Source of the DNA: an uncultured Gammaproteobacteria bacterium
Lineage (GTDB): Bacteria; Patescibacteriota; Patescibacteriia; Magasanikbacterales; GWA2-37-8
Direction: 5' to 3'
NCBI GenBank assembly: GCA_964535515.1
Contig: CAZHTA010000004.1
Location: forward strand, 27,888-68,377
Length of the DNA: 40,490 bases
Shown here: positions 10,891 to 33,460 of the stretch, one piece after another
Numbering within the stretch: position 1 is the first letter of the stretch
Layout of the letters: each line of letters begins with the position of its first letter
The notes under the pieces: model-generated
Databases searched by the model: none
Told to the model about the DNA's origin: nothing
The model's input: only the letters and a program-made list of their open reading frames with translations
Translations under genes and position numbers: made by a program

Positions 10891-10960
10891 TTCTTTAAAA
10901 CACAAGCACCCGACCGAAGTCGAGTGCGTTGTGCACGTTGTTGGGGCCTGCTCCAATGAG

Positions 10961-11452
10961 CTAGGCCAGTCGCGTCGCGGTACCGTCGCCGAGGTGGAGC
11001 TCGTACACGGCGCTGCTCGCAGCCTCGAGCTTGAGGCTCTCGAGCACCGGACGTCCGGCCACGAGGACGACGTCCGGGCTGCCCTCGGCGAGGATCAGCA
11101 TGCCGTACGTTTCCCGCAGGTGCATGAGCGTGGCTTCGCGGGACGGCATTCGGAACCGGTCCAACGTCGTCTGCGCGTTGCAGGCGAGCGCGATGTTCCA
11201 CCCTCCGTTGCCGTTGGGGACGCCCGAGCTGGGGTCACCCAGCATGGGATCGTACCACTCGATCTCCTGGAAGATGTCCAGCGCCTCGGCCGTGTCGATG
11301 TGACGCCGGGCGGTCCCGCAGAAGACTCGACGCTTGTCGGGGAGGGGCAGGTGCGGTACGAGCCGTTCGATCTCGCTTCTTCCTTTGCTCGTGAGACCGG
11401 GGTCCGCACCGGGACCCTTCGAACCGTGGGTGATCAATAGGACTCGCGCCAT
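10961..11452 (-). CDS. High-GC foreign ORF of 163 aa on the opposite strand, with a weak histidine-phosphatase-like pattern (THG in place of RHG). Function unknown.
   Basis: Open frame with very high GC3 across the whole island and a strong SD (GGAGAAcgagagATG), unlike native genes. Protein begins MARVLLITHGSKGPGADPGLTSKGRSEIERL and contains VFCGTARRHIDTAEAL. The listed 198-aa ORF starts at an upstream in-frame codon; the SD supports the MARV start. Confidence 0.4.
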   Translation of the reverse strand: MARVLLITHGSKGPGADPGLTSKGRSEIERLVPHLPLPDKRRVFCGTARRHIDTAEALDIFQEIEWYDPMLGDPSSGVPNGNGGWNIALACNAQTTLDRFRMPSREATLMHLRETYGMLILAEGSPDVVLVAGRPVLESLKLEAASSAVYELHLGDGTATRLA

Positions 11453-11605
11453 CTCTCGTTCTCCTATGGTTGTGCGACACGCTGTCGCTTGGTCCCAAAT
11501 AAACGTGCAGTTTGTTTCAGATAGTGCTCGGATTTGGTTAAATCCAGGCAAAATCATGGTACCAAACGTTTCAGTATAGTATATTTTCGCTGTTTTGTCA
11601 ATATT

Positions 11606-13117: not shown

Positions 13118-14200
13118 ATGGAAAGAGGACCAAGTTTAAGGCCAGAGGATATGCTAGTTGGCAATGATGGGGTGGATCAGAAAGCGCGAGGTGTAATTGA
13201 ATCACGTGATAGCGCCGTAGCTCATAATATTGAGCGTGGGGAAGGCTTATCATCTTCGCGTGTTGTTTTGGAGTTTATGCGTCATGGTAAAAAAGAAAAA
13301 GCGCCAGGCAAAGATGATCGTGATATACGCATTGTTCCGGAAGCGCGTGTGGCAGCAACGGAAAAAGGTAAAAAATTAGGAGCGCAAGCTGAGGTGTCGG
13401 TTGTTTATGCTAGTCCGCGTAACCGTACTCAGGAATCTGCTGGCCGAGTTGCTTTGGGTAATCAATCAGAAATTACTGCGGATATGAGCTTAGAGGATAT
13501 TATGGTTAAAACAATGGAGCATAATGCTATTTTAATGCCTGATCAGTTAGAACGTTTGCGCGAGCTGTTGTCTCATCCAATGGAAGAATTAAATGCTGAA
13601 GAAAAGAAGGAGCTAAAACTTTTGTCGAGTAAAGGTAAAAAAATCATGGTTGATGAACGTTTGGATTTTACTGATGAAACAGAGGAGGGTCTAAAAGCTT
13701 TTATGGCTGGTCGTTATTTAGATCATGCTGTAAAGGATAGTGATCAGTTGGCAATTGCAAAGCATGATACTAAATTATCTACCTATACTCGTTCGGCTGG
13801 TAAGATCGCGGAGATTGTTTCTAAATATATTCAGGTGGGTAAAAATTTTAACAAAAGAGTAAGTGTTGATCCAGAGAAATATAAAAAATTCGGTAATCAA
13901 TTAGAAAGATATTTTGGTTCACACCAAGGTGTTGTAGAATGTTTTTTGTTGAAAGCAATCGAGAAAATAAAAGGTGTAAAAGAGCGTGATGAGATTTTGG
14001 CTTTGATGCCAGCAGGTTTTAAAGAGTTACAAGGTGTAAGGATTGGCATTGAGAACAATGGCAAAGGAGAACAGGTGATTGTTTTAGATGCCGAAGTTGA
14101 AGGAAGAAAGATTAATTTAGAATTAACCCCAGAGATTTTAATGGGTATGGTTAGTGATAGAGATGTGCTGGATGAACAATGTAAGAGTAGTGTGGAGTAA
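13118..14200 (+). CDS. Histidine phosphatase superfamily (PGAM/SixA-like, RHG motif) protein
   Basis: VLEFMRHGKKE (RHG), then VPEAR..A.EKGKKLG, VVYASPRNRTQESA (SP..R..Q.A) and a distal GSHQGVVE resembling the second catalytic His region. Confidence 0.55.
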   Translation: MERGPSLRPEDMLVGNDGVDQKARGVIESRDSAVAHNIERGEGLSSSRVVLEFMRHGKKEKAPGKDDRDIRIVPEARVAATEKGKKLGAQAEVSVVYASPRNRTQESAGRVALGNQSEITADMSLEDIMVKTMEHNAILMPDQLERLRELLSHPMEELNAEEKKELKLLSSKGKKIMVDERLDFTDETEEGLKAFMAGRYLDHAVKDSDQLAIAKHDTKLSTYTRSAGKIAEIVSKYIQVGKNFNKRVSVDPEKYKKFGNQLERYFGSHQGVVECFLLKAIEKIKGVKERDEILALMPAGFKELQGVRIGIENNGKGEQVIVLDAEVEGRKINLELTPEILMGMVSDRDVLDEQCKSSVE

Positions 14201-19009: not shown

Positions 19010-19149
19010 GTCAACAATTAACTTGGGCAATGTAGTAAGGGCCTAAAAGCCAACAGGACGTTCCCAGTATTTCCAGGCTGGATTAAACCAGTCGGAGGTC
19101 GAATTTATCTATCTCAAACAACATTTTGGGAACAAAACAATCAAAATAT

Positions 19150-19479
19150 ATGGCTTTTGGTACTGACAGACAAATGTTTGATGTTGACTTGACCTGTGCT
19201 AAGTGCGGGTCTCACATCGCTCAGTTGCCTTTTCAACCATCTGGTGATCGACCGGTTTACTGTTCTGACTGCAACCGTGCTTTCCGCCAGAGTCGTCCTG
19301 ATGATCGTGGTAGCCGTGGTGGTAGTTTTGGTGGACGCTCAGATGGCCCTCGCCAGATGTACAGCGTTAACCTAAGCTGCGCTTCCTGCGGAACTGCGAT
19401 TACCCAACTACCGTTCCAGCCAACTGGTGATAAGCCAGTTTACTGCCGGGACTGTATGCAGGCTCGTCGTAATGGTTAA
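19150..19479 (+). CDS. Small tandem-duplicated zinc-ribbon protein: two CxxC-x17-CxxC units joined by an RGG-like linker
   Basis: Repeat 1 is DLTCAKCGSHIAQLPFQPSGDRPVYCSDC. Repeat 2 is NLSCASCGTAITQLPFQPTGDKPVYCRDC. The linker is RGSRGGSFGGRSDG. G+C is visibly higher than in neighbouring genes. The listed ORF starts at a TTG (19126); the first ATG is at 19150. Confidence 0.55.
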   Translation: MAFGTDRQMFDVDLTCAKCGSHIAQLPFQPSGDRPVYCSDCNRAFRQSRPDDRGSRGGSFGGRSDGPRQMYSVNLSCASCGTAITQLPFQPTGDKPVYCRDCMQARRNG

Positions 19480-21954: not shown

Positions 21955-23808
21955 ATGATTACCTCAGTACAACTTCGTGAAAAATATTTAGAGTTTTTTA
22001 AAAGCAAAGGGCATGGAGTGATCCCCTCGGCTTCTTTGATTCCAGAAAATGATCCAACAGTATTGTTTACTACTGCAGGTATGCATCCATTGGTGCCGTA
22101 TTTACTTGGAGAAAAGCATCCTTCTGGTACACGGTTGGTTAATGTACAAAAATGTATTCGTACTCAAGATATTGATGAAGTAGGAGACAATCGTCATGAT
22201 ACTTTCTTTGAAATGATGGGAAATTGGTCTTTGGGTGATTATTTTAAAAAAGAAGCAATTGAGTGGAGTTTTGAATTTTTAACTAATAAAGAAACTGGTT
22301 TGGGGCTAGATATTAATAAGTTGGCGGTTTCAGTGTTTGCTGGGGATGATAATGCTCCACGTGATGAAGAATCAGCGGGTATTTGGAAATCACTGGGTAT
22401 GCCAGAGGAACGTATCGCCTATTTACCTAAAAGTAATAACTGGTGGGGACCAGCTGGTCAGACTGGTCCTTGTGGACCAGATACAGAAATGTTTTTTTGG
22501 AAAGGTGAAGGTGAATATCCACCGGCTGGTAGTAATCCTGGCACAGATGAAGATAACTGGTTGGAGATCTGGAATGATGTGTTTATGGAATATGAGAAAA
22601 CAAAAGAAGGCACATTTGTTCAACTTAAACAAAAGAACGTTGACACTGGTATGGGTTTAGAGCGTACATTAATGACGTTGAATGGTTTTGCTGATGTTTT
22701 TCAAATTGACACTTTTTGGCCGTTAATTCAAAAAATTCAAGATATTTCGGGGCATGAATATATTGAAAGTGTAGCGGTAACCAAGTCCATGCGTATTATT
22801 GCTGACCATATTCGTACGGCTACAATGATTACGGGGGATGACCATAGTATTGCTCCAAGTAATGTTGATCAGGGATATATTGTTCGCCGTATGATTCGTC
22901 GGGCAGTACGTCATGGGCGTAGTCTTGGTATTACTGAAAATTTTTGTTCTCAAATTGCTGGTGAGGTAATTAAAATATTTACAGAAGTTTATCCAGAAGT
23001 AGCACGTAACAAAGAATTCGTTTTAACGGAAATTGCTAAAGAAGAAAGTAAGTTTAGAAATACTATTGAGCAGGGTTTGAAAGAATTTGAAAAATTGATT
23101 AATGGTTTTAGAATTGCTTTTGAAAAAACTGGTCGTCAGATGGAAGAAATTTCTGGTAAGCAAGCTTTCAAGCTTTTTGATACCTATGGTTTTCCTTTGG
23201 AGATGACACAAGAACTTGCTTTAGAAAACAATTTAAAAGTTAATGTGGCAGAATTTGAAGAAGCATTTAAAGCGCACCAAAGTTTGTCGCGTGCGGGTGC
23301 TGAACAGAAATTTAAGGGTGGTTTGGCTGATACTTCTGAGATGTCCACAAAATATCATACAGCAACACATTTATTGCAAGCGGCATTGCGTACAGTGCTA
23401 GGAAATCATATTGGTCAAAAAGGGAGCAACATCACAGCTGAACGGTTACGTTTTGATTTTTCGCATCCCGAAAAAATGACTGATGAACAGAAAAAGCAGG
23501 TAGAAGATTTGGTAAATTATGCTATTCAACATAATTACGAAGTGACTTTTGAGGAAATGAGTTTGGAGGACGCGGAGAAGCGCAATGCCACCGGTTTGTT
23601 TGTTGATCGCTATGGCGCCAAAGTTAAGGTGTATTCAGTCGGTGATCCTTTAACTCCACCGGCAGCACATGAGAATTCACTTACGTTTAGTAAGGAAGTG
23701 TGCGGTGGTCCACACGTAGAACACACTGGTGTATTAGGAACTTTCAAGATTATTAAAGAAGAAGCGGTTTCATCGGGTGTGCGTCGTATTAAAGCAATTT
23801 TAGAATAA
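21955..23808 (+). CDS. alaS: Alanyl-tRNA synthetase, short form of 617 aa lacking the C-Ala domain
   Basis: N-terminus LREKYLEFFKSKGHGVIPSASLIPENDPTVLFTTAGM. Editing-domain motifs HTATHLLQAALR and CGGPHVEHTG are present. Confidence 0.8.
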   Translation: MITSVQLREKYLEFFKSKGHGVIPSASLIPENDPTVLFTTAGMHPLVPYLLGEKHPSGTRLVNVQKCIRTQDIDEVGDNRHDTFFEMMGNWSLGDYFKKEAIEWSFEFLTNKETGLGLDINKLAVSVFAGDDNAPRDEESAGIWKSLGMPEERIAYLPKSNNWWGPAGQTGPCGPDTEMFFWKGEGEYPPAGSNPGTDEDNWLEIWNDVFMEYEKTKEGTFVQLKQKNVDTGMGLERTLMTLNGFADVFQIDTFWPLIQKIQDISGHEYIESVAVTKSMRIIADHIRTATMITGDDHSIAPSNVDQGYIVRRMIRRAVRHGRSLGITENFCSQIAGEVIKIFTEVYPEVARNKEFVLTEIAKEESKFRNTIEQGLKEFEKLINGFRIAFEKTGRQMEEISGKQAFKLFDTYGFPLEMTQELALENNLKVNVAEFEEAFKAHQSLSRAGAEQKFKGGLADTSEMSTKYHTATHLLQAALRTVLGNHIGQKGSNITAERLRFDFSHPEKMTDEQKKQVEDLVNYAIQHNYEVTFEEMSLEDAEKRNATGLFVDRYGAKVKVYSVGDPLTPPAAHENSLTFSKEVCGGPHVEHTGVLGTFKIIKEEAVSSGVRRIKAILE

Positions 23809-23809
23809 A

Positions 23810-24277
23810 ATGGTAAAAAGATTTATTTGTTATCTTTGGAAAAAGAAGTTTCTACAATATTCTATTGTTGGAAGCTCTGCTTTTGTTTTAGATTTTGCTT
23901 CGTTGATTATTTTGAAAGAAGTTTTTAATTTTAATCCGATTGTGGCAGTAGCAGTGGATCAGATTATTACAATTAATTATGTTTTCTTTTTAAATAAGTA
24001 TTGGTCATTTAAATCTAACGGTCAAACAACTAAGCAGTTAGTTAAATTTTTAGTTTTGATGCTTTGGAATTATGTTTTCGCTGTTTTTTGGATGTGGTTG
24101 TTCACAAGTGTAGTTTCTTTTTCTATAGAAGTAAGTTTGTTTGGCAAAACACGTGATCTTTGGTATTTGGTAGTTAGACTAGCGAATATCCTTTTGGCCA
24201 TCAGTTGGAACTTTTTAATTTACAAATATTGGGTGTACAAGGCAGAAGTTTTGGAAAACAAAAATCCGACCGCATAA
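23810..24277 (+). CDS. GtrA-family small membrane protein
   Basis: Four predicted TM segments and a GtrA-like pattern (VGSSAFVLDFASL...NKYWSFKS). Confidence 0.55.
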   Translation: MVKRFICYLWKKKFLQYSIVGSSAFVLDFASLIILKEVFNFNPIVAVAVDQIITINYVFFLNKYWSFKSNGQTTKQLVKFLVLMLWNYVFAVFWMWLFTSVVSFSIEVSLFGKTRDLWYLVVRLANILLAISWNFLIYKYWVYKAEVLENKNPTA

Positions 24278-24394
24278 AACCTCCTGCTTTGTCTCCAAAT
24301 ATTTAGAGATAAAACAGTAGGGCGGTCGGATATGTATCCTTTGTCCCACTGCGCTCTGGATCGAACGATCCTGGGCGGGGGGGCACGGGCCTCT

Positions 24395-24616
24395 TCAGTC
24401 GTTGCGCTCGATCGGCTCGCCGTCGGACTCGGTGCGTACGCGATGGTGTGCGCCAGCCCAGGTGCGAAGAACGCCGCGACTGCCTTCGGTGCCACGAAGA
24501 TGTCGCACAGACGGCGGGGTCGAGACGTCTTTGGCTTTGGCCGCACGTTCGAGGATCTCTTCCCAGCAGTCCGCGCACGGAGCCGTTTCCGAACAGTCCG
24601 GATTGTTGCAAGGCAT
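24395..24616 (-). CDS. High-GC small Cys-rich ORF of 73 aa within a foreign-looking island. Function unknown.
   Basis: MPCNNPDCSETAPCADCWEE... has four Cys spaced C-x4-C-x6-C-x2-C. Elevated GC3, with AAAGGG upstream of the ATG. Several overlapping ORFs occupy the same island, so the frame choice is tentative. Confidence 0.25.
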   Translation of the reverse strand: MPCNNPDCSETAPCADCWEEILERAAKAKDVSTPPSVRHLRGTEGSRGVLRTWAGAHHRVRTESDGEPIERND

Positions 24617-24763
24617 TATGATGCCCTTTCAAAAGTTGAAGGATAAAACTATTAAACATTAAAAAAAGTGTTTAGTCAAGAACTGTGGGTTAATTAGAAA
24701 AATACTAAATTTATGCATATTTAAGCCAAAAAACGGCAAAAATAGTCGAATTTTGCCTAACTA

Positions 24764-24792
24764 TTGACAAAAAAAGGGTTTTATATTAAAAT
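24764..24792 (+). promoter_or_regulatory. Candidate promoter of the infA-rpmJ-rps cluster: TTGACA, 17-nt spacer, TAAAAT
   Basis: ttgaca at 24764-24769 and taaaat at 24787-24792. Confidence 0.4.
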
Positions 24793-24811
24793 ATTGAATG
24801 TAATTTTTTAC

Positions 24812-25030
24812 ATGGTTGGAAAACAAGATACAATCGAAATCAAGGGTGTAATTGAAGAGCTTTTGCCGGCTGGTACTTTCCGAGTAAAATTGGAAAGCGG
24901 CCAGACTATCATTGCTCATCTCTCTGGTAAAATGCGGATGAACAAAATCCGTTTGAGCCTAGGAGACACGGTCAAAATGGAAATGACCCCATACGATTTA
25001 ACCAAGGGGAGAATCACGTTTCGATTCTAA
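24812..25030 (+). CDS. infA: Translation initiation factor IF-1
   Basis: [42 protein letters not shown]...ITFRF. The listed ORF begins at a TTG inside the promoter; the ATG is at 24812. Confidence 0.85.
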
Positions 25031-25211
25031 GGACAAATTAAAATTCAACAAACTAATCAACCAGTGCGGTGTAGTTTGGCTCAGTAATCTGATTTCGATC
25101 AGACGAAAAGAGTCGGACGCGGATATCGCGGCAGTGGTTGGTGTTTTTGCATTATACACAATTTATTAAGCTATTTAATTAATATACACTTTAGTATTTA
25201 AGTAATCTACT

Positions 25212-25325
25212 ATGAAAGTGCAAGCGTCCGTAAAGAAAATTTGCATGAAGTGCAAAACCGTTCGTCGCAAAGGTCGGATATTCGTTATTTGTTCCAATCC
25301 TAAACATAAACAACGTCAGGGTTAA
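25212..25325 (+). CDS. rpmJ: 50S ribosomal protein L36
   Basis: Encodes [37 protein letters not shown], in the canonical infA-rpmJ-rpsM order. It is too short for the ORF track. Confidence 0.85.
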
Positions 25326-25339
25326 TTTTACATACATTT

Positions 25340-25723
25340 ATGCGTATCGCTAGTACAAACATTCCTAACGAGAAAAAAATCGGCATTTCCCTACGCTATA
25401 TTTTTGGCATAGGTCCTACTTTAGCTAAAAGTGTTTTAGCTCAAGCTGGTGTAGATCCAGAGAAAAGAACAAAGGATCTTACTGAGGCCGAACAAGACAA
25501 ACTACGAGCAATCGTAGAAAAAGGTCATAAAACCGAAGGTGACTTACGTCGCGAAATCATGTCCAACATTAAACGCTTGAAAGATATCAAGTGTTATCGC
25601 GGCATTCGCCATATGCGTCACTTACCGGTTCGTGGTCAACGCACCAAGACGAACTCTCGTACTGTGCGTGGCAACACCAGAAAGACCGCTGTTTCCGGAA
25701 AGAAACCGGTTTCTAAGACCTAA
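25340..25723 (+). CDS. rpsM: 30S ribosomal protein S13
   Basis: [33 protein letters not shown]. Confidence 0.9.
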
Positions 25724-25737
25724 TTTTTACTAATATT

Positions 25738-26199
25738 ATGACTGAAGAAGTAAAAAATTCTCCCGTCGTGGCTGCTGCTGAACCAGCTAAGGCCGAAGGG
25801 GAGAAAGGAAAAAAGGTAGCAAAGGCAAAAAAGAAGAAGACCGTTGCTCGTCAAGTGCCACGTGCTAATGCTTATATCCAAGCTACTTACAACAATACTA
25901 TCATTACCATGACTGATTTAAACGGCAACGTTTTAGGTTGGTCATCTTCTGGTAAAGTAGGTTTTAAAGGTCCAAAGAAAGCTACTCCTTATGCCGCTTC
26001 CTTGGTTGCCAAAGATTTGGCTGAGAAGATTATCGATTACGGCATCAAAGAAGTGAGTGCTTTTGTTAAAGGTATTGGCGGTGGTCGTGAAGGTGCGATT
26101 CGCGCTTTACACACCAACGGCTTTAATGTGGTATCAATTAACGATGTTACTCCGATCCCACATAATGGTTGCCGTCCTCCTAAACGCCGTCGCGTTTAA
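25738..26199 (+). CDS. rpsK: 30S ribosomal protein S11, with an N-terminal Lys/Ala-rich extension of about 20 aa
   Basis: [38 protein letters not shown]. Confidence 0.9.
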
Positions 26200-26220
26200 C
26201 AAGTAATTAATTCTTGAAAT

Positions 26221-26847
26221 ATGCCTAATTTAGATCGACAATGTTCTCAATGCCGTCGTGCCAAAGAAAAGCTTTTCTTAAAAGGGGACAAGTGTGCTGG
26301 ACCAAAATGTCCAATGCTAAAACGTCCTTATGCTCCTGGTCAACATGGACCAAACAAAAAAGGTGCTCGTAAGCTTTCTGATTACGGAAAACAGTTGAAA
26401 GAGAAACAAGAAGCAAAACGCAGCTATGGTTTACGCGAACGTCAGTTTGCTAACTATGTTGTTGAAGCTTCTGGTAAGACTGGTGATACCGGTAAATTCC
26501 TTTTACAATATTTAGAATCCCGTTTAGATAATGTGGTATACCGCATGGGCTTAGCCAAATCACGTGCACTTGCACGTCAGTTGACTAACCATGGTCATAT
26601 CACTGTAAACGGTAAAAAAGTTGATATTCCTTCTTATCGCGTCCGCGTTGGTGAGGTTATCGCCTTATCACCAAAGGCCATGAAAAAGAAGTCGTTTGAG
26701 AATATCAGCGAAATTTTGAGTAAAGTTGAAGCGCCAATTTGGTTAGGGCTTGAAGCCAAAACCGCTAGCGCTAAGATTTTAAACACACCTTCAGTTGAGA
26801 GTACACCATTCTCAGCGAAGATGATCATTGAGTTTTATTCTCGTTAA
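26221..26847 (+). CDS. rpsD: 30S ribosomal protein S4
   Basis: Zinc-ribbon N-terminus CSQCRRAKEKLFLKGDKCAGPKCP plus the S4 domain. Confidence 0.9.
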   Translation: MPNLDRQCSQCRRAKEKLFLKGDKCAGPKCPMLKRPYAPGQHGPNKKGARKLSDYGKQLKEKQEAKRSYGLRERQFANYVVEASGKTGDTGKFLLQYLESRLDNVVYRMGLAKSRALARQLTNHGHITVNGKKVDIPSYRVRVGEVIALSPKAMKKKSFENISEILSKVEAPIWLGLEAKTASAKILNTPSVESTPFSAKMIIEFYSR

Positions 26848-26863
26848 TTATTAATTCTATTTT

Positions 26864-27682
26864 ATGGAGAATTTCTTATTACCTTCCAAAATAGAATTCC
26901 AGCCGGGCACCAATCCAATGACTGGATCCTTAGTAGTTACACCATGTTATCATGGCTATGGCACTACTTTAGGCAACGCTTTGCGTCGGGTGCTTTTATC
27001 TTCTCTCCCAGGAGGGGCAGTGGAATCTTTTAAGGTCAAAGGGGCGCAACATGAATTCAGCACCGTTGAAGGTGTGCAAGAAGATGTTGTGGAGATAATC
27101 TTGAGTTTGAAGCAATTGGCGGTTAAGGTATTTTCTGAAGAGCCAGTGTTGTTAACATTGTCCAAAAAAGGTCCAGGTCCAGTTACTGCTGCTGACATTG
27201 CCAAAGATGCGCGCGTAGAAATCGCGAACAAAGATTTGGTGATTGCCAACTTAACTAGTAACAAGACTTTGGAAATGGAAATTATGGTAGCTAATGGTCG
27301 TGGCTATCGTCCGGTAGAAGAAAAAGATCGTAAAAACTATGATCTCGGTACAATCGTAGTGGATTCGGTCTACAGTCCAGTTAAAGATGTTGGTTACAAG
27401 GTTGAATATACTCGTGTTGGTGATATCACTGACTATGAAAAATTGATCGTCAACATCGAAACTGATGGTACTGTTTCTCCGGAAGAAGCCGTTAATCAGG
27501 CAACCAGAATTTTGATGGATCATTTTGCGGTAATCGCGGAGAGTGTTGCACACCCCGTTAAATCTGCCCCAGTAGTAGAAGAGGAAATTTCTGTTGAACC
27601 AGAAATACAAGAGGAAGTAAAGGAAGAAGGGGAAGTAGAGGCAGAAAAAACTACTAAGAAAAAAGCAACTAAGAAGAAATAA
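26864..27682 (+). CDS. rpoA: RNA polymerase alpha subunit, N-terminal domain only. A charged tail replaces the alpha-CTD.
   Basis: RpoA NTD motifs (TPCYHGYGTTLGNALRRVLLSSLPGGA), a length of 272 aa, and an EEV/KKK-rich C-terminus. Confidence 0.8.
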   Translation: MENFLLPSKIEFQPGTNPMTGSLVVTPCYHGYGTTLGNALRRVLLSSLPGGAVESFKVKGAQHEFSTVEGVQEDVVEIILSLKQLAVKVFSEEPVLLTLSKKGPGPVTAADIAKDARVEIANKDLVIANLTSNKTLEMEIMVANGRGYRPVEEKDRKNYDLGTIVVDSVYSPVKDVGYKVEYTRVGDITDYEKLIVNIETDGTVSPEEAVNQATRILMDHFAVIAESVAHPVKSAPVVEEEISVEPEIQEEVKEEGEVEAEKTTKKKATKKK

Positions 27683-27686
27683 TTTT

Positions 27687-28037
27687 ATGCGTCACCAATC
27701 GAATAAAGTCACATTGGATCGCAAAGCTGCACCACGTCGTGCTCTTTTAGCTAATTTAGTGGAGAGTTTGGTTCTATACGAAAAAATTACCACTACTTTA
27801 GCAAAAGCTAAAGCTTTACGTCCAAGAGCAGAAAAGTTGATTACTATTGCTAAAGGTAATACCTTGGCTTCACGTCGTCAAATTTTGAAAGTTCTGTATA
27901 CCAAAAATGCCGTTAAGAAATTAATGGAAGTTTTGGGCCCACGTTATGCTGAACGAAAAGGTGGTTATACCCGTATCATTAAGCTCGGCGTTCGTAAGGG
28001 CGACGGTGCGGAAGAGGCGGTTATTGAATTAGTATAA
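27687..28037 (+). CDS. rplQ: 50S ribosomal protein L17
   Basis: MRHQSNKVTLDRKAAPRRALLANLVESLV. Confidence 0.9.
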   Translation: MRHQSNKVTLDRKAAPRRALLANLVESLVLYEKITTTLAKAKALRPRAEKLITIAKGNTLASRRQILKVLYTKNAVKKLMEVLGPRYAERKGGYTRIIKLGVRKGDGAEEAVIELV

Positions 28038-28041
28038 TCCT

Positions 28042-28392
28042 ATGTCAAGACATAAATTTACTTTTGATGCTACTGGTTTAGCACCGGGGAGATTAGCCAC
28101 CAAGATCGCGATGATTTTGATGGGTAAACACAAACCAACCTATGCCCCATATTTAGATGAGGGTGATAAGGTGGAGATTGAGAATGTTTCCTTGTTACGT
28201 TTTACTGGTAAGAAGATTGATCAAAAACTTTATCGACATCACTCAAATCACCCAGGTGGTTTGAAAGAAATTCCAGCGAAGAAGATGTTGAAAGAGAAGC
28301 CACAAGATGTTATCAAATTGGCTGTGATCAAGATGTTGCCAAAGAACAAGTTGCGTACTTTACGCATGAAGAGATTGACTTTTAAAAAGTAA
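28042..28392 (+). CDS. rplM: 50S ribosomal protein L13
   Basis: Length 116 aa. Conserved core around HSNHPGGLKEIPAKKMLKEKPQ...KNKLR. Confidence 0.85.
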   Translation: MSRHKFTFDATGLAPGRLATKIAMILMGKHKPTYAPYLDEGDKVEIENVSLLRFTGKKIDQKLYRHHSNHPGGLKEIPAKKMLKEKPQDVIKLAVIKMLPKNKLRTLRMKRLTFKK

Positions 28393-28395
28393 CCT

Positions 28396-28803
28396 ATGAC
28401 TAAAGTTGCGAAAAAAACTGATGAGAATCGCGCTGTCGGTCGTCGCAAGCGCGCTTCCGCTCGGGTACGTATTACAAAAGGAGAAGGCAAGATTGTTGTG
28501 AATGGAAAAGATTTTAAAGTATATTTTCCACACTTTTCACAGCAAGATGCTGTCATGGCACCATTAGTCGCTTTGGCTAAAGAAAAAGATTTGGATGTTT
28601 CGGTCAAAGTAGTTGGTGGCGGCAAGAAGGGTCAGTCTGTGGCTGTAGGCCATGGTATTGCCCGGGCTTTAGTGGTTTGGAACGAAGAGTTCAAGAAAAC
28701 CCTAAAGACACTTGGTCTTCTTACTCGTGATTCACGTATTAAGGAAAGAAAGAAATTTGGTTTGAAGAAAGCTAGACGTGCACCACAGTGGTCAAAGCGT
28801 TAA
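28396..28803 (+). CDS. rpsI: 30S ribosomal protein S9
   Basis: GGGKKGQSVAVGHGIARAL and C-terminal KRAPQWSKR. Confidence 0.9.
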   Translation: MTKVAKKTDENRAVGRRKRASARVRITKGEGKIVVNGKDFKVYFPHFSQQDAVMAPLVALAKEKDLDVSVKVVGGGKKGQSVAVGHGIARALVVWNEEFKKTLKTLGLLTRDSRIKERKKFGLKKARRAPQWSKR

Positions 28804-32351: not shown

Positions 32352-33460
32352 AAACTTTAATTATCACTCTTGAATATCCACCGCAGATTGGTGGAATCGC
32401 CTCGTATGTTTACAATTTTGTTAAGCACTATTCTTTAGGTGAAGTAATGGTGTATGCGCCGACTATGCCAGGTGGAACTGAGTTTGACATTAAGAATTCT
32501 TGGAAAACAATTCGCCTTAAGCCTTTTTGGGGTTTGCGTCCAAGGTGGTTTAAGTTGTTGTTGCAATTACGTAAGATTATTAAGCAAGAACAAATTAGCG
32601 AGTTGTTTGTTCACCATGTTTTACCCGTTGGTTATGTTGCATATTTGTTGAAGAAAAATTTAGGTATTTCTTATACAATATTTTTGCACGGTACTGATTT
32701 GGAAATGGCGACTAACAAACGTAGTAAAACAAAAAAGTTTGCTAAGATTTGTTTGAATGCGAATAGAGTGGTAGTGAATAGCGAATTTTTGAAAAACAAA
32801 TTATCGAATAAAGTGGAGGGTTTAAAAAATGTTGTGGTATTGTATCCGTGTCCAGGTGATCAATTTTTACAGCCTACTAATCAAGAAGAATTAGAAATAT
32901 TACGTTCTAAGTTAGCTTTAAATGGTAAGAAAGTTTTGTTGACCGTGGCACGTATGGCAGAAGGCAAGGGTTTTCCACATTTAATTCGTTTGTTGCCACA
33001 GATTTTGCAAAAGGTGCCAAATTTAGTTTGGTTAGTGATTGGCGATGGCCCGAAACGGCCAATGTTAGTAGATATGGTGCAGCAAAATAGTCTGCAAAAT
33101 GTTACGCGCTTTTTAGGGGTAGTGCCATATGAAGATTTGGCTAAATACTACAAGCTAGCTGATTTGTTTGTTTTGTTAACCCACAAAGATGAAAGTTCGG
33201 AAGAAGGATGGGGGACAGTATTTTTAGAAGCTGCCGCTAGCAGTCTCCCGGTAGTAGCGGGACGTGTGGGTGGAGTGGAAGAGGTAGTTGATAATTTACG
33301 TACGGGAATTTTAGTGGATGTGTATCAGGATATGAGTGTAGTATCGGGAGTGGCGGACTTATTGCGAGAAGAAAAATATGCGAAAGAGTTAGGAATGGCA
33401 GGGCACGAACGGGTGTTAGCTGAATTTACTTGGGAAAAACAGATTGATAAATTGAAGTAG
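32348..33460 (+). CDS. Glycosyltransferase family 4 (GT-B, group 1)
   Basis: EGWGTVFLEAAASSLPVVAGRVGGVEEVV, the E-x7-E region. Confidence 0.7.
   Translation: MKTLIITLEYPPQIGGIASYVYNFVKHYSLGEVMVYAPTMPGGTEFDIKNSWKTIRLKPFWGLRPRWFKLLLQLRKIIKQEQISELFVHHVLPVGYVAYLLKKNLGISYTIFLHGTDLEMATNKRSKTKKFAKICLNANRVVVNSEFLKNKLSNKVEGLKNVVVLYPCPGDQFLQPTNQEELEILRSKLALNGKKVLLTVARMAEGKGFPHLIRLLPQILQKVPNLVWLVIGDGPKRPMLVDMVQQNSLQNVTRFLGVVPYEDLAKYYKLADLFVLLTHKDESSEEGWGTVFLEAAASSLPVVAGRVGGVEEVVDNLRTGILVDVYQDMSVVSGVADLLREEKYAKELGMAGHERVLAEFTWEKQIDKLK

What the first reader, a model, noticed from the sequence alone, without database searches (positions are those of the whole stretch)
24310..24640. Second short high-GC island with a Cys-rich mini-ORF upstream of the infA-ribosomal cluster
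Between the GtrA-like gene and the infA promoter lies a second stretch of roughly 300 bp at about two-thirds G+C. It contains five mutually overlapping ORFs. The most gene-like is a 73-aa minus-strand ORF (MPCNNPDCSETAPCADCWEE..., four Cys spaced C-x4-C-x6-C-x2-C) with AAAGGG upstream of its ATG. The two islands share the same compositional signature and lie about 13 kb apart, suggesting a common foreign source. The product could be a zinc-ribbon regulator, an antitoxin-like protein or a peptide precursor, but that is speculative.
Basis: seen in the sequence. Interest (0 to 1): 0.55.

Follow-up and report, generated by a model that had tools for sequence, protein, structure and literature searches.

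The report
GC-rich hypervariable small-gene cassette
A 280-bp stretch of 66% G+C in a 37% G+C genome of an uncultured ultra-small bacterium is a real, unannotated, self-contained mini-gene for a 73-residue cysteine-rich protein that sits at the same spot in two related genomes but with an almost completely different interior.

Summary
Window 24320-24601 is 65.6% G+C against a background of 36.9 +/- 4.2%, and it lies between gtrA and the infA promoter.

It is not an assembly artefact. Two independent assemblies of related Magasanikbacteria (L109, L111) carry a GC-rich island at exactly this site. Nine other relatives have a short AT-rich spacer of 85-230 bp instead.

The island is the body of an autonomous minus-strand unit. 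The unit has a TTGACT-17-TTTAAT promoter, GAAAGGG, the 73-aa ORF, a 3' hairpin and a long intrinsic terminator that overlaps the last gtrA codons.

The minus frame is the only frame that is both open in all three genomes and shows substitutions biased to third codon positions. The protein has four Cys at the N-terminus (C-x4-C-x5-C-x2-C, not x6) and an acidic tail.

The ends of the unit are conserved. The core is unalignable, at 45-50% identity against 91% for the flanks, which exceeds the four-fold-site divergence of 0.16.

I found no homologue, Pfam, PHROG, PADLOC, PDB or Rfam match and no donor.

My best reading is a moron-like accessory gene cassette whose alleles are swapped by recombination, and whose product probably binds a metal. 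A common recent foreign donor shared with island 1 is not supported, although island 1 has the same architecture.

The parts
24320..24601 (.). GC-rich segment at 65.6% G+C. It covers the 3' UTR and most of the ORF.
   Evidence: ML boundaries; 6.3 SD above background.
24395..24616 (-). 73-aa ORF: MPCNNPDCSETAPCADCWEE...IERND. Cys at residues 3, 8, 14 and 17; pI 5.6; GRAVY -0.94.
   Evidence: It is homologous to the L109 75-aa ORF (BLASTP 1e-15). 21 of 36 substitutions in the alignable blocks fall at codon position 3 (p = 0.002). It is the only frame that is open in all three genomes and also has a purifying-selection pattern.
24624..24630 (-). Shine-Dalgarno-like GAAAGGG, 7 nt before the ATG.
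   Evidence: Read. The equivalents are GAAAGG in L109 and AAGAGGG in L111.
24651..24679 (-). Putative sigma-70 promoter TTGACT (24679-24674), 17-nt spacer, TTTAAT (24656-24651).
   Evidence: Read. Both hexamers and the spacing are identical in L109 and L111 and are absent from the empty sites. The strict scan did not list it because the -10 hexamer has T at position 2. This is a prediction only.
24358..24371 (-). Small 3'-UTR hairpin GGATCG-AA-CGATCC, flanked by CGCC/GGCG pairing. It is conserved in all three genomes.
   Evidence: pairs 55-80 and 61-74 are kept in 3 of 3 sequences.
24373..24389 (.). G-run GGGCGGGGGGGCACGGG on the + strand (C-run in the transcript), directly 3' of the stop codon.
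   Evidence: L109 and L111 are G-rich at the same place. Its function is unknown.
24254..24331 (-). Intrinsic terminator of the minus-strand unit. A long hairpin (24331-24264; outer stem AUCCGACCGCCC / GCGGUCGGAU) is followed by UUUUUGUUUU (24263-24254). It overlaps the last 8 codons of gtrA (ENKNPTA*).
   Evidence: about 30 pairs are kept in 3 of 3 sequences. The T-run is read.
24264..24697 (-). The whole inserted module (about 434 bp, +/- 10 bp at each end), measured against the empty sites of relatives.
   Evidence: Alignments with L110, L112 and L005.
23810..24277 (+). gtrA, the left neighbour. Its C-terminal extension ...LENKNPTA is found only in the island-bearing genomes.
24764..25030 (+). 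The infA promoter (24764-24792) and infA (24812-25030), the right neighbour. infA is 100% identical at the protein level in L109.

Best explanation
The island is the transcribed body of a small, self-contained accessory gene cassette on the minus strand, laid out as promoter, SD, 73-aa ORF, 3'-UTR hairpin and intrinsic terminator. It is lodged between gtrA and infA in a narrow group of Magasanikbacteria (CPR/Patescibacteria).

Shown:
- It is an insertion relative to nine related genomes.
- It is present at the same site in three independent assemblies.
- Its regulatory ends are conserved, while its GC-rich core differs far more than neutral sites of the flanking genes.
- The minus-strand frame is the only frame that is both open in all three genomes and evolving with a coding periodicity.

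Inferred:
- The unit is transcribed from its own promoter, convergently with gtrA.
- It makes a soluble, acidic protein of about 75 residues. The N-terminal cluster of four to five cysteines, helped by histidines, binds a metal ion (Zn, or an Fe-S cluster) and forms the only folded element. The rest is a disordered, fast-changing tail.
- The extreme core divergence comes from replacement of old alleles by homologous recombination through the conserved ends and flanks, not from in-place mutation. This is the pattern of strain-variable genes under diversifying or frequency-dependent selection, for example in phage or host interaction.

The ultimate origin of the GC-rich coding DNA is unknown. 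It behaves like a phage 'moron' but sits in a housekeeping region of a cellular chromosome.
For: Insertion:
- The gtrA-infA spacer is 534 bp here.
- It is 85-230 bp and AT-rich in L002-L005, L023, L110, L112, L113 and L114-119.

Independent presence:
- L109 and L111 both carry an island at the same site.

Conserved ends, variable core:
- In 100-bp windows the island core is 45-50% identical, against a mean of 91% (SD 7.7) over 10.8 kb.
- Against shuffled sequence, the cores score z = 2.6, 0.3 and 2.2. The 3' UTR and promoter ends score z = 8-20.
- Four-fold-site divergence between the window and L109 is only 0.16 (0.33 on the left flank, 0-0.14 on the right).

Coding:
- In the alignable blocks there are 13 synonymous and 13 non-synonymous codon changes, and 21 of 36 substitutions are at position 3 (p = 0.002).
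- All four Cys, the Trp and an HLRxTEG block are kept, with 7 synonymous changes in 13 codons.
- Minus frame 0 is open in all three genomes. The + frame that shares its third positions has stops in L109 and L111. The other open + frame has 3 synonymous against 23 non-synonymous changes.
- The three products share length (73-81 aa), pI (5.5-5.9) and 13 acidic residues. All their Cys lie in the first 30 residues (permutation p = 0.02, 0.01, 0.006).

Regulatory signals:
- The terminator hairpin plus U-run is conserved.
- The promoter hexamers are conserved in the three island-bearing genomes.

Same architecture elsewhere:
- Island 1 and an unrelated CPR contig, L083.
Against: - There is no transcript, peptide or metal-binding evidence. 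The promoter and SD are consensus-level predictions, and the promoter failed the strict scan.
- The synonymous/non-synonymous count alone does not separate the minus frame from one + frame (12/12).
- The L111 product is not significantly similar to the other two (E = 0.1 and 7). Homology of all three ORFs therefore rests on position, frame and composition.
- GC3 is only 0.68-0.78, not the >0.85 typical of genes from high-GC bacteria.
- The AlphaFold single-sequence model is weak (pLDDT 59).
- No homologue was found anywhere. That result is itself weak evidence, because a relative as distant as L109 (51 bits) would score only about E = 0.01 in the 1.84 G-protein library.
- Allelic replacement is inferred from two pairwise comparisons, not from population data.
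Confidence: 0.5

Rival explanations
1. The unit is a gene for a GC-rich structured non-coding RNA transcribed from the minus strand, and the ORF is incidental.
For: - High G+C in an AT-rich genome is a classic signature of structured RNA genes (my own knowledge).
- The 3' part (hairpin plus terminator) is better conserved than the ORF core.
- MFE z-scores of the minus strand are -3.7 in L109 and -2.1 in L111.
- The L111 ORF has no significant protein similarity to the others.
Against: - The window's own minus strand folds no better than shuffles (z = -0.9).
- There is no Rfam match, even at E <= 10.
- Substitutions show a three-base periodicity (p = 0.002).
- The frame, the start codon and the N-terminal Cys cluster are kept in all three genomes.
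- The core is not alignable, so no covariation supports any fold.
Confidence: 0.15
2. This is the first reader's view: a recent import of foreign DNA from a high-GC donor, the same donor as island 1, that has not yet been ameliorated.
For: - Both islands are about 65% G+C in a 37% genome.
- The island 1 ORF has GC3 = 0.85 and a weak histidine-phosphatase signature.
- Both islands are autonomous units.
- The distribution among relatives is patchy.
Against: - The island is at the same site in L109 and in L111, whose native genes differ from the window at 16% and 46% of four-fold sites. It is therefore not recent in this genome.
- No donor or homologue was found for either island.
- The two islands share no sequence.
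- The promoter and the terminator loop are AT-rich, like native DNA.
Confidence: 0.12
3. The core is diversified in place by a targeted mutagenic process, either a diversity-generating retroelement or structure-induced hypermutation.
For: - The core divergence exceeds the neutral proxy.
- A GC-only run followed by a hairpin lies just 3' of the variable part. This resembles a DGR IMH plus hairpin (resemblance from my own knowledge).
Against: - There is no template-repeat copy and no reverse-transcriptase-like ORF in the 40-kb window.
- The alleles differ by indels and at all bases, not only at adenine-templated sites.
- Synonymous sites inside the conserved HLRxTEG block are nearly saturated (7 of 9 identical residues use different codons). 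That points to old alleles rather than new mutations.
Confidence: 0.05
4. The island is an assembly or binning chimera: high-GC reads wrongly joined into a CPR contig.
For: Sharp compositional edges and the lack of any homologue are what a chimera could look like.
Against: - Three independent assemblies from different data sets carry an island at the same site, with conserved junction sequences.
- Both junctions fall between intact genes.
- The insert carries matching promoter and terminator signals.
Confidence: 0.02

Closest known systems
Phage 'morons': autonomous accessory transcription units (definition in PMC3594210)
   Same: - It is a single small ORF inserted between two genes that are adjacent in related genomes.
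- It has its own promoter and factor-independent terminator.
- Its G+C is clearly different from that of its neighbours.
- Its distribution is patchy.
   Different: It sits in a cellular chromosome between gtrA and the infA/ribosomal-protein cluster, not in a phage or prophage. There are no phage genes nearby and no PHROG match. Its core is hypervariable between close relatives.
Hypervariable allelic loci with conserved flanks, such as pherotype or immunity loci like agr or comC/comQX (my own knowledge)
   Same: Allele divergence is far above the genome background, the ends are conserved, and the N-terminal part of the product is conserved while the rest varies.
   Different: There is no adjacent receptor, processing or toxin gene. 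The product has no signal or leader features. Here the variable gene also has a foreign base composition.
Small Cys4 zinc-binding proteins (zinc ribbons and knuckles; for example the native treble-clef protein PF23477 at 19126-19479)
   Same: It is a short protein with four clustered cysteines, including one CxxC, followed by a helix.
   Different: The spacing is C-x4-C-x5-C-x2-C, so there is no pair of CxxC knuckles. No Pfam, NCBIfam or PDB match was found. The spacing is not kept in L111.
Lineage-specific orphan (ORFan) genes in genomic islets of Patescibacteria (HGT survey PMC12455944)
   Same: It is a compositionally atypical accessory gene of unknown function in a streamlined CPR genome.
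   Different: At about 430 bp and one gene, it is below the size that island predictors report. Gene callers missed it (L109) or called the wrong strand (L111), so it is absent from protein databases.

Membership tests
Phage moron | Inserted between two genes that are adjacent in related genomes | tested here: met
   gtrA and infA are 85-230 bp apart in nine relatives and 534 bp apart here.
Phage moron | Own promoter and own factor-independent terminator | tested here: met
   A conserved TTGACT-17-TTTAAT promoter and a conserved hairpin plus U-run. This is sequence-level prediction only; no transcript data exist.
Phage moron | [quoted passage not shown] | tested here: met
   65.6% against 36.9%.
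Phage moron | Located in a phage or prophage genome | tested here: not met
   The neighbours are alaS, gtrA, infA, rpmJ, rpsM and so on. There are no PHROG hits and no match in viral contigs.
Zinc ribbon / Zn-finger protein | Two CxxC (or CxxH) knuckles and a match to a Zn-ribbon profile | tested here: not met
   There is only one CxxC, and the pattern is C-x4-C-x5-C-x2-C. Pfam, NCBIfam and PDB give no match.
Zinc ribbon / Zn-finger protein | Binds a metal ion through the Cys cluster | not testable with these tools
   This needs purified protein. The AlphaFold model is low-confidence (pLDDT 59).
RiPP precursor peptide | Adjacent modifying-enzyme or transporter genes, and a Cys/Ser/Thr-rich C-terminal core | tested here: not met
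   The neighbours are housekeeping genes. All Cys are N-terminal.
Toxin-antitoxin module (antitoxin) | A co-transcribed partner gene | tested here: not met
   It is a single ORF between its own promoter and terminator. PADLOC and Pfam give no hits.
DGR variable region | A template repeat and a reverse transcriptase nearby, with differences confined to adenine-templated sites | tested here: not met
   The window holds no second copy and no RT-like ORF. The alleles differ by indels and at all bases. The rest of the genome was not available.
Known RNA families (Rfam 15) | A score at or above a family's gathering threshold | tested here: not met
   There are no matches at gathering score. Only chance hairpin hits to miRNA models appear at E >= 0.18.
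Integron gene cassette | An attC site 3' of the ORF and an integron integrase or a cassette array | not tested
   No attC model was available. The 3' hairpin shows no recognisable GTTRRRY core by eye. It is a single unit, not an array.

The most novel reading that the evidence does not exclude
CPR/Patescibacteria genomes may carry a so-far undescribed class of GC-rich micro-cassettes. Each would be a conserved AT-rich 'frame' (sigma-70 promoter plus intrinsic terminator, on the strand opposite to the surrounding genes) around a 0.3-0.7 kb GC-rich orphan ORF. The interior would be exchanged or re-captured from outside DNA, for example from a high-GC host of the episymbiont or from its mobile elements. 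Gene callers trained on the AT-rich genome would systematically miss these units.

Three of the three islands I examined fit this layout: island 2, island 1 and L083. Island 2 shows the conserved frame and variable core directly.
Probability: 0.12. Interest if true: 0.75.

Novelty: new variant of a known kind. Interest (0 to 1): 0.45.

Why it matters
If the reading is right, this is a real gene that current pipelines do not see. It was not called in the Logan contig and was called on the wrong strand in the JGI contig, so it is absent from protein databases.

It shows that even the most conserved housekeeping neighbourhood of a streamlined CPR genome, directly upstream of infA and the ribosomal-protein genes, tolerates a strain-variable, compositionally foreign accessory gene.

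Allele divergence far above the genomic background marks the locus as a candidate for genes involved in conflict or partner recognition. These are the least understood aspects of CPR biology.

The persistent 66-70% G+C in three diverged 37% G+C genomes also needs an explanation. The options are selection at the RNA level, repeated import, or biased repair.

It remains a single small orphan gene without functional data, so its present value is as a lead.

Tried and rejected
Searches that found nothing:
- Rfam at gathering score and at E <= 10, and ARAGORN: nothing.
- Pfam, NCBIfam, PHROGs, PADLOC and PDB profiles for the ORFs of all three genomes and for every overlapping ORF: nothing.
- Word-indexed search of 5.8 G proteins and full HMMER search of 1.84 G representatives: no homologue.
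- blastn and tblastn against plasmids and phages: nothing, or E >= 3.
- The metagenome-contig scan with the ORF peptides: nothing.
- Conserved-end DNA patterns and the two-sequence profile in viral contigs: nothing.
- A three-sequence HMM against six-frame translations of all 1.7 Mb of fetched loci: no further member.

Leads rejected:
- One viral contig (L081) shares 'ERAAKAKDVS' with the C-terminus of a 197-aa ORF that reads like a phage small terminase (my reading, not tested). The match is a 10-residue Ala/Lys-rich stretch found only through that exact word, and I treated it as chance.
- Target-site duplication: GATAAAAC at 24308 and 24642 lies inside the module. The GAAAA-rich junctions are too AT-rich to be meaningful.
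- A DGR: no template repeat or RT in the window.
- The + strand ORFs, including the one JGI called in L111, fail the frame-conservation and substitution tests.
- Island 1 as a diverged paralogue of the native His_Phos_1 gene: no significant similarity.

Dead ends:
- Single-sequence AlphaFold models of both island ORFs were too poor (pLDDT 59 and 50) to justify fold searches.
- Exact look-ups of gtrA, rpsM, rpmJ and the zinc-finger protein did not find the source contig.
- A literature search found no description of such islands. The 'hypervariation' reported in a Gracilibacterium is a tandem-repeat gene, which is a different phenomenon.

Full report
**1. The observation**

The window is an AT-rich genome at 37.4% G+C. 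Nearly all genes are on the + strand, and the G-over-C skew is strong.

AlaRS, GtrA and the gene order alaS-gtrA-infA-rpmJ-rpsM place it among Magasanikbacteria (CPR/Patescibacteria). The best AlaRS identity to species representatives is 69-78%.

The island is real.
- 40-bp windows jump from 35-40% to 57-72% G+C at 24320 and fall back after about 24600.
- Maximum-likelihood boundaries are 24320-24601 at 65.6% G+C. That is 6.3 SD above the 300-bp background.

The island lies between gtrA (23810-24277; PF04138) and the infA promoter (24764-24792).

Six ORFs of 57-118 aa overlap inside it. That is expected for 66% G+C DNA and means nothing by itself.

The 73-aa minus ORF (24395-24616) and the AAAGGG before its ATG are as described. 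The cysteine spacing is C-x4-C-x5-C-x2-C, not x6.

**2. It is an insertion, and it is not an artefact**

In nine related genomes the gtrA-infA spacer is short and AT-rich with no island:
- L002, L003, L004, L005 and L023: 110-230 bp
- L110: 87 bp
- L112: about 100 bp
- L113: 85 bp
- L114-119: 100 bp

An exact-sequence look-up of infA found a Logan assembly of SRR16110226 (L109). It is 91% identical to the window over 10.8 kb and has a 531-bp spacer with a GC-rich island at the same place.

A JGI metagenome contig (L111; GtrA 77% identical, AlaRS 87%) has a 588-bp spacer with a 68-72% G+C island, again at the same place.

Three independent assemblies exclude a chimera.

Measured against the empty sites, the inserted module is about 24264-24697. 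It includes the last codons of gtrA. The C-terminal ...LENKNPTA is shared only by the three island-bearing genomes.

AlaRS identities among the window, L111, L112 and L114 range from 83% to 90%, with no clear nesting. The presence of the island is therefore patchy: either it was lost several times, or it spread laterally between lineages.

In another relative (L001) the same spacer holds a 1271-aa ORF. The site accepts insertions.

**3. Anatomy**

Read on the minus strand, the module is a complete transcription unit.
- Promoter: TTGACT (24679-24674), a 17-nt spacer and TTTAAT (24656-24651). Both hexamers and the spacing are identical in L109 and L111. The strict scanner skipped it only because the second base of the -10 hexamer is T.
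- GAAAGGG sits 7 nt before the ATG.
- The ORF follows.
- A C-rich run comes next.
- A small conserved hairpin follows (GGAUCGUUCGAUCC).
- A hairpin of about 68 nt with the outer stem AUCCGACCGCCC/GCGGUCGGAU is followed by UUUUUGUUUU. About 30 of its pairs are kept in all three sequences.

The promoter and the terminator loop are AT-rich. Only the ORF and the proximal 3' UTR are GC-rich.

**4. Which strand, and is it coding?**

Folding energy gives no clear answer. The minus-strand z-scores are -0.9 (window), -3.7 (L109) and -2.1 (L111). The + strand is about -1.3 in all three.

No Rfam family matches.

The window and L109 products are homologous (BLASTP E = 1e-15, 44% identity).

In the two ungapped blocks (codons 1-24 and the PS..HLRxTEGxR block):
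- 21 of 36 nucleotide differences are at codon position 3 (binomial p = 0.002).
- There are 13 synonymous and 13 non-synonymous codon changes.
- All four Cys, the Trp and the prolines are kept.

One + strand frame shares the same third positions and scores similarly (12/12). I anchored the frames on the homologous GAC-TGY (Asp-Cys) codons to separate the candidates:
- That + frame is broken by stops in L109 and L111.
- The other + frame is open everywhere but has 3 synonymous against 23 non-synonymous changes. It is a shadow ORF.
- Only the minus frame is open in all three genomes, at 73, 75 and 81 codons. It starts at the same place behind a purine-rich element.

The L111 product is not significantly similar in sequence to the other two (E = 0.1 and 7). 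It does share the following with them:
- length
- pI (5.5-5.9)
- 13 acidic residues
- hydrophilicity
- all of its Cys (five) within the first 30 residues (p = 0.006)

I conclude that the unit is most probably protein-coding on the minus strand. An RNA-level role cannot be excluded.

**5. Hypervariable core**

Over the 10.8 kb shared with L109, 100-bp identity averages 0.91 (SD 0.077). The only windows below 0.8 are those across the island and the adjoining promoter region (seven windows spanning 24324-24710), plus one marginal window at 0.79 elsewhere (32458-32557). The minimum, in the island core, is 0.45.

Needleman-Wunsch scores of the cores against shuffles:
- window-L109: z = 2.6
- window-L111: z = 0.3
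- L109-L111: z = 2.2

The 3' UTR/terminator and promoter ends give z = 8-20.

Four-fold degenerate sites of ten flanking genes differ at 0.16 between the window and L109. The left flank is at 0.32-0.33 and the right flank at 0-0.14, so there is a step in divergence at the island.

A core that is near-random at all codon positions cannot be produced by relaxed constraint at that neutral distance.

Inside the conserved HLRxTEG block, 7 of 9 identical residues use different codons. This indicates old alleles rather than new mutations.

The most economical explanation is replacement of the core by recombination with divergent alleles, using the conserved ends and flanks. A DGR is unlikely. There is no template copy or RT in the window, and the alleles differ by indels and at all bases.

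**6. Origin of the G+C**

No donor could be identified.
- There is no protein homologue in 5.8 G or 1.84 G sequence sets.
- There is no DNA or protein match in plasmids, phages, viral contigs or JGI metagenome contigs.
- The single viral hit (L081) is a 10-residue Ala/Lys-rich coincidence at the C-terminus of a 197-aa ORF that reads like a small terminase (my reading, not tested).

These negatives are weak for a fast-evolving 73-residue protein. The L109 allele itself would reach only about E = 0.01 in the large library.

Gene callers missed the gene on CPR contigs. Nothing was called in L109, and a + strand ORF was called in L111.

The island keeps 66-70% G+C and GC3 of 0.68-0.78 in three genomes whose native GC3 is 0.27-0.47 and whose four-fold sites differ by up to 46%. 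So it is not a recent import into this genome. Either high-GC alleles are repeatedly brought in, or composition is selected.

**7. Island 1 and the 'common source'**

Island 1 (about 10905-11500, 65% G+C) carries a 163-aa minus ORF.
- GC by codon position is 0.67/0.49/0.85.
- It has a weak histidine-phosphatase signature (Pfam E = 0.005, below the cut-off; 34% identity over 74 aa to a Rhodobacteraceae plasmid gene, E = 0.06).
- It has its own TTGACA-17-TATACT promoter (11601-11573).
- It has its own intrinsic terminator (10927-10906).

It has no detectable homologue and no similarity to island 2.

The two islands therefore share an architecture and a composition, not a demonstrable donor.

A GC-rich island in an unrelated CPR contig (L083, 3301-4000) has the same layout: a minus-strand promoter, a 216-aa orphan ORF and a terminator between + strand housekeeping genes. 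It has no Pfam, Rfam or tRNA match.

**8. Comparison with known systems**

The unit meets three of the four defining features of a phage moron: insertion between genes that are otherwise adjacent, its own promoter and terminator, and deviant G+C (PMC3594210). It fails the fourth, because it is not in a phage.

The following were tested and not met (see the membership table):
- zinc ribbon
- RiPP precursor
- antitoxin
- DGR target
- known RNA families

The divergence pattern resembles hypervariable allelic loci such as pherotype or immunity loci, but there is no partner gene.

**9. Verdict**

The finding is a real, unannotated, moron-like small-gene cassette with conserved regulatory ends and a hypervariable GC-rich core. 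It encodes a Cys-rich acidic protein of about 75 residues with no known relatives.

The choice of ORF is supported. The proposed origin (a common recent foreign donor) and the specific functional guesses are not.

- Confidence in the cassette and coding interpretation: about 0.5-0.6.
- Confidence in metal binding: about 0.35-0.4.
- Confidence in a conflict-related role: about 0.2.
- Interest: 0.45.

Noticed in passing
window 10905-11500 (ORF 10961-11452 minus; promoter 11601-11573; terminator 10927-10906): Island 1 is also an autonomous minus-strand unit with a GC-rich orphan ORF (GC3 = 0.85). The ORF has a weak histidine-phosphatase signature but reads THG where the catalytic RHG is expected. 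It sits among four PEP-utiliser paralogues and near a native His_Phos_1 gene (13118-14200), to which it is not significantly similar.
   Followed up: partly
L083 3301-4000; L087 8201-9800; L085 1451-1950: Other CPR contigs carry short islands 20-35 points above their genomic G+C. The islands in L083 and L087 hold orphan ORFs with no Pfam match, and those two loci have no Rfam or tRNA match. The L083 island has the same layout of opposite-strand promoter, ORF and terminator. The L085 island is less clear.
   Followed up: partly
L001 12478-16293: In a related MAG the same gtrA-infA spacer holds a 1271-aa + strand ORF with no Pfam domain. This suggests the spacer is an insertion hot spot.
   Followed up: partly
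window 22516-24277 versus 24711-28803 (compared with L109): There is a step in divergence at the island. Four-fold sites differ at 0.32-0.33 in alaS and gtrA on the left, but at 0-0.14 in infA through rpsI on the right. The infA region, including its promoter, is 97-99% identical. This could be a recombination boundary or codon-usage constraint in highly expressed genes.
   Followed up: no
window 19126-19479: A native gene for a duplicated treble-clef zinc finger (PF23477, E 7e-29) reaches 52.7% G+C. This is the highest native 300-bp value in the window, so elevated G+C alone is not proof of foreign origin here.
   Followed up: no
window 24373-24389: GGGCGGGGGGGCACGGG has four G3 tracts and so matches a G-quadruplex-type motif on the + strand. 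It lies directly 3' of the ORF stop. L109 and L111 are G-rich at the same place, although the motif is not strictly kept.
   Followed up: no
L005 6480-6535: The closest island-free GTDB relative has a 52-nt GC-rich hairpin (TTGTCATCCCGA...TCGGGATGACAA) in the same spacer. It shares short words (CCACTGCG, GCGGTCGG) with the left end of the island. This may be chance or a remnant.
   Followed up: no
L111 3184-3477: The JGI annotation calls a 97-aa + strand ORF inside the island. By frame conservation and substitution pattern this is most likely a shadow ORF of the minus-strand gene.
   Followed up: yes
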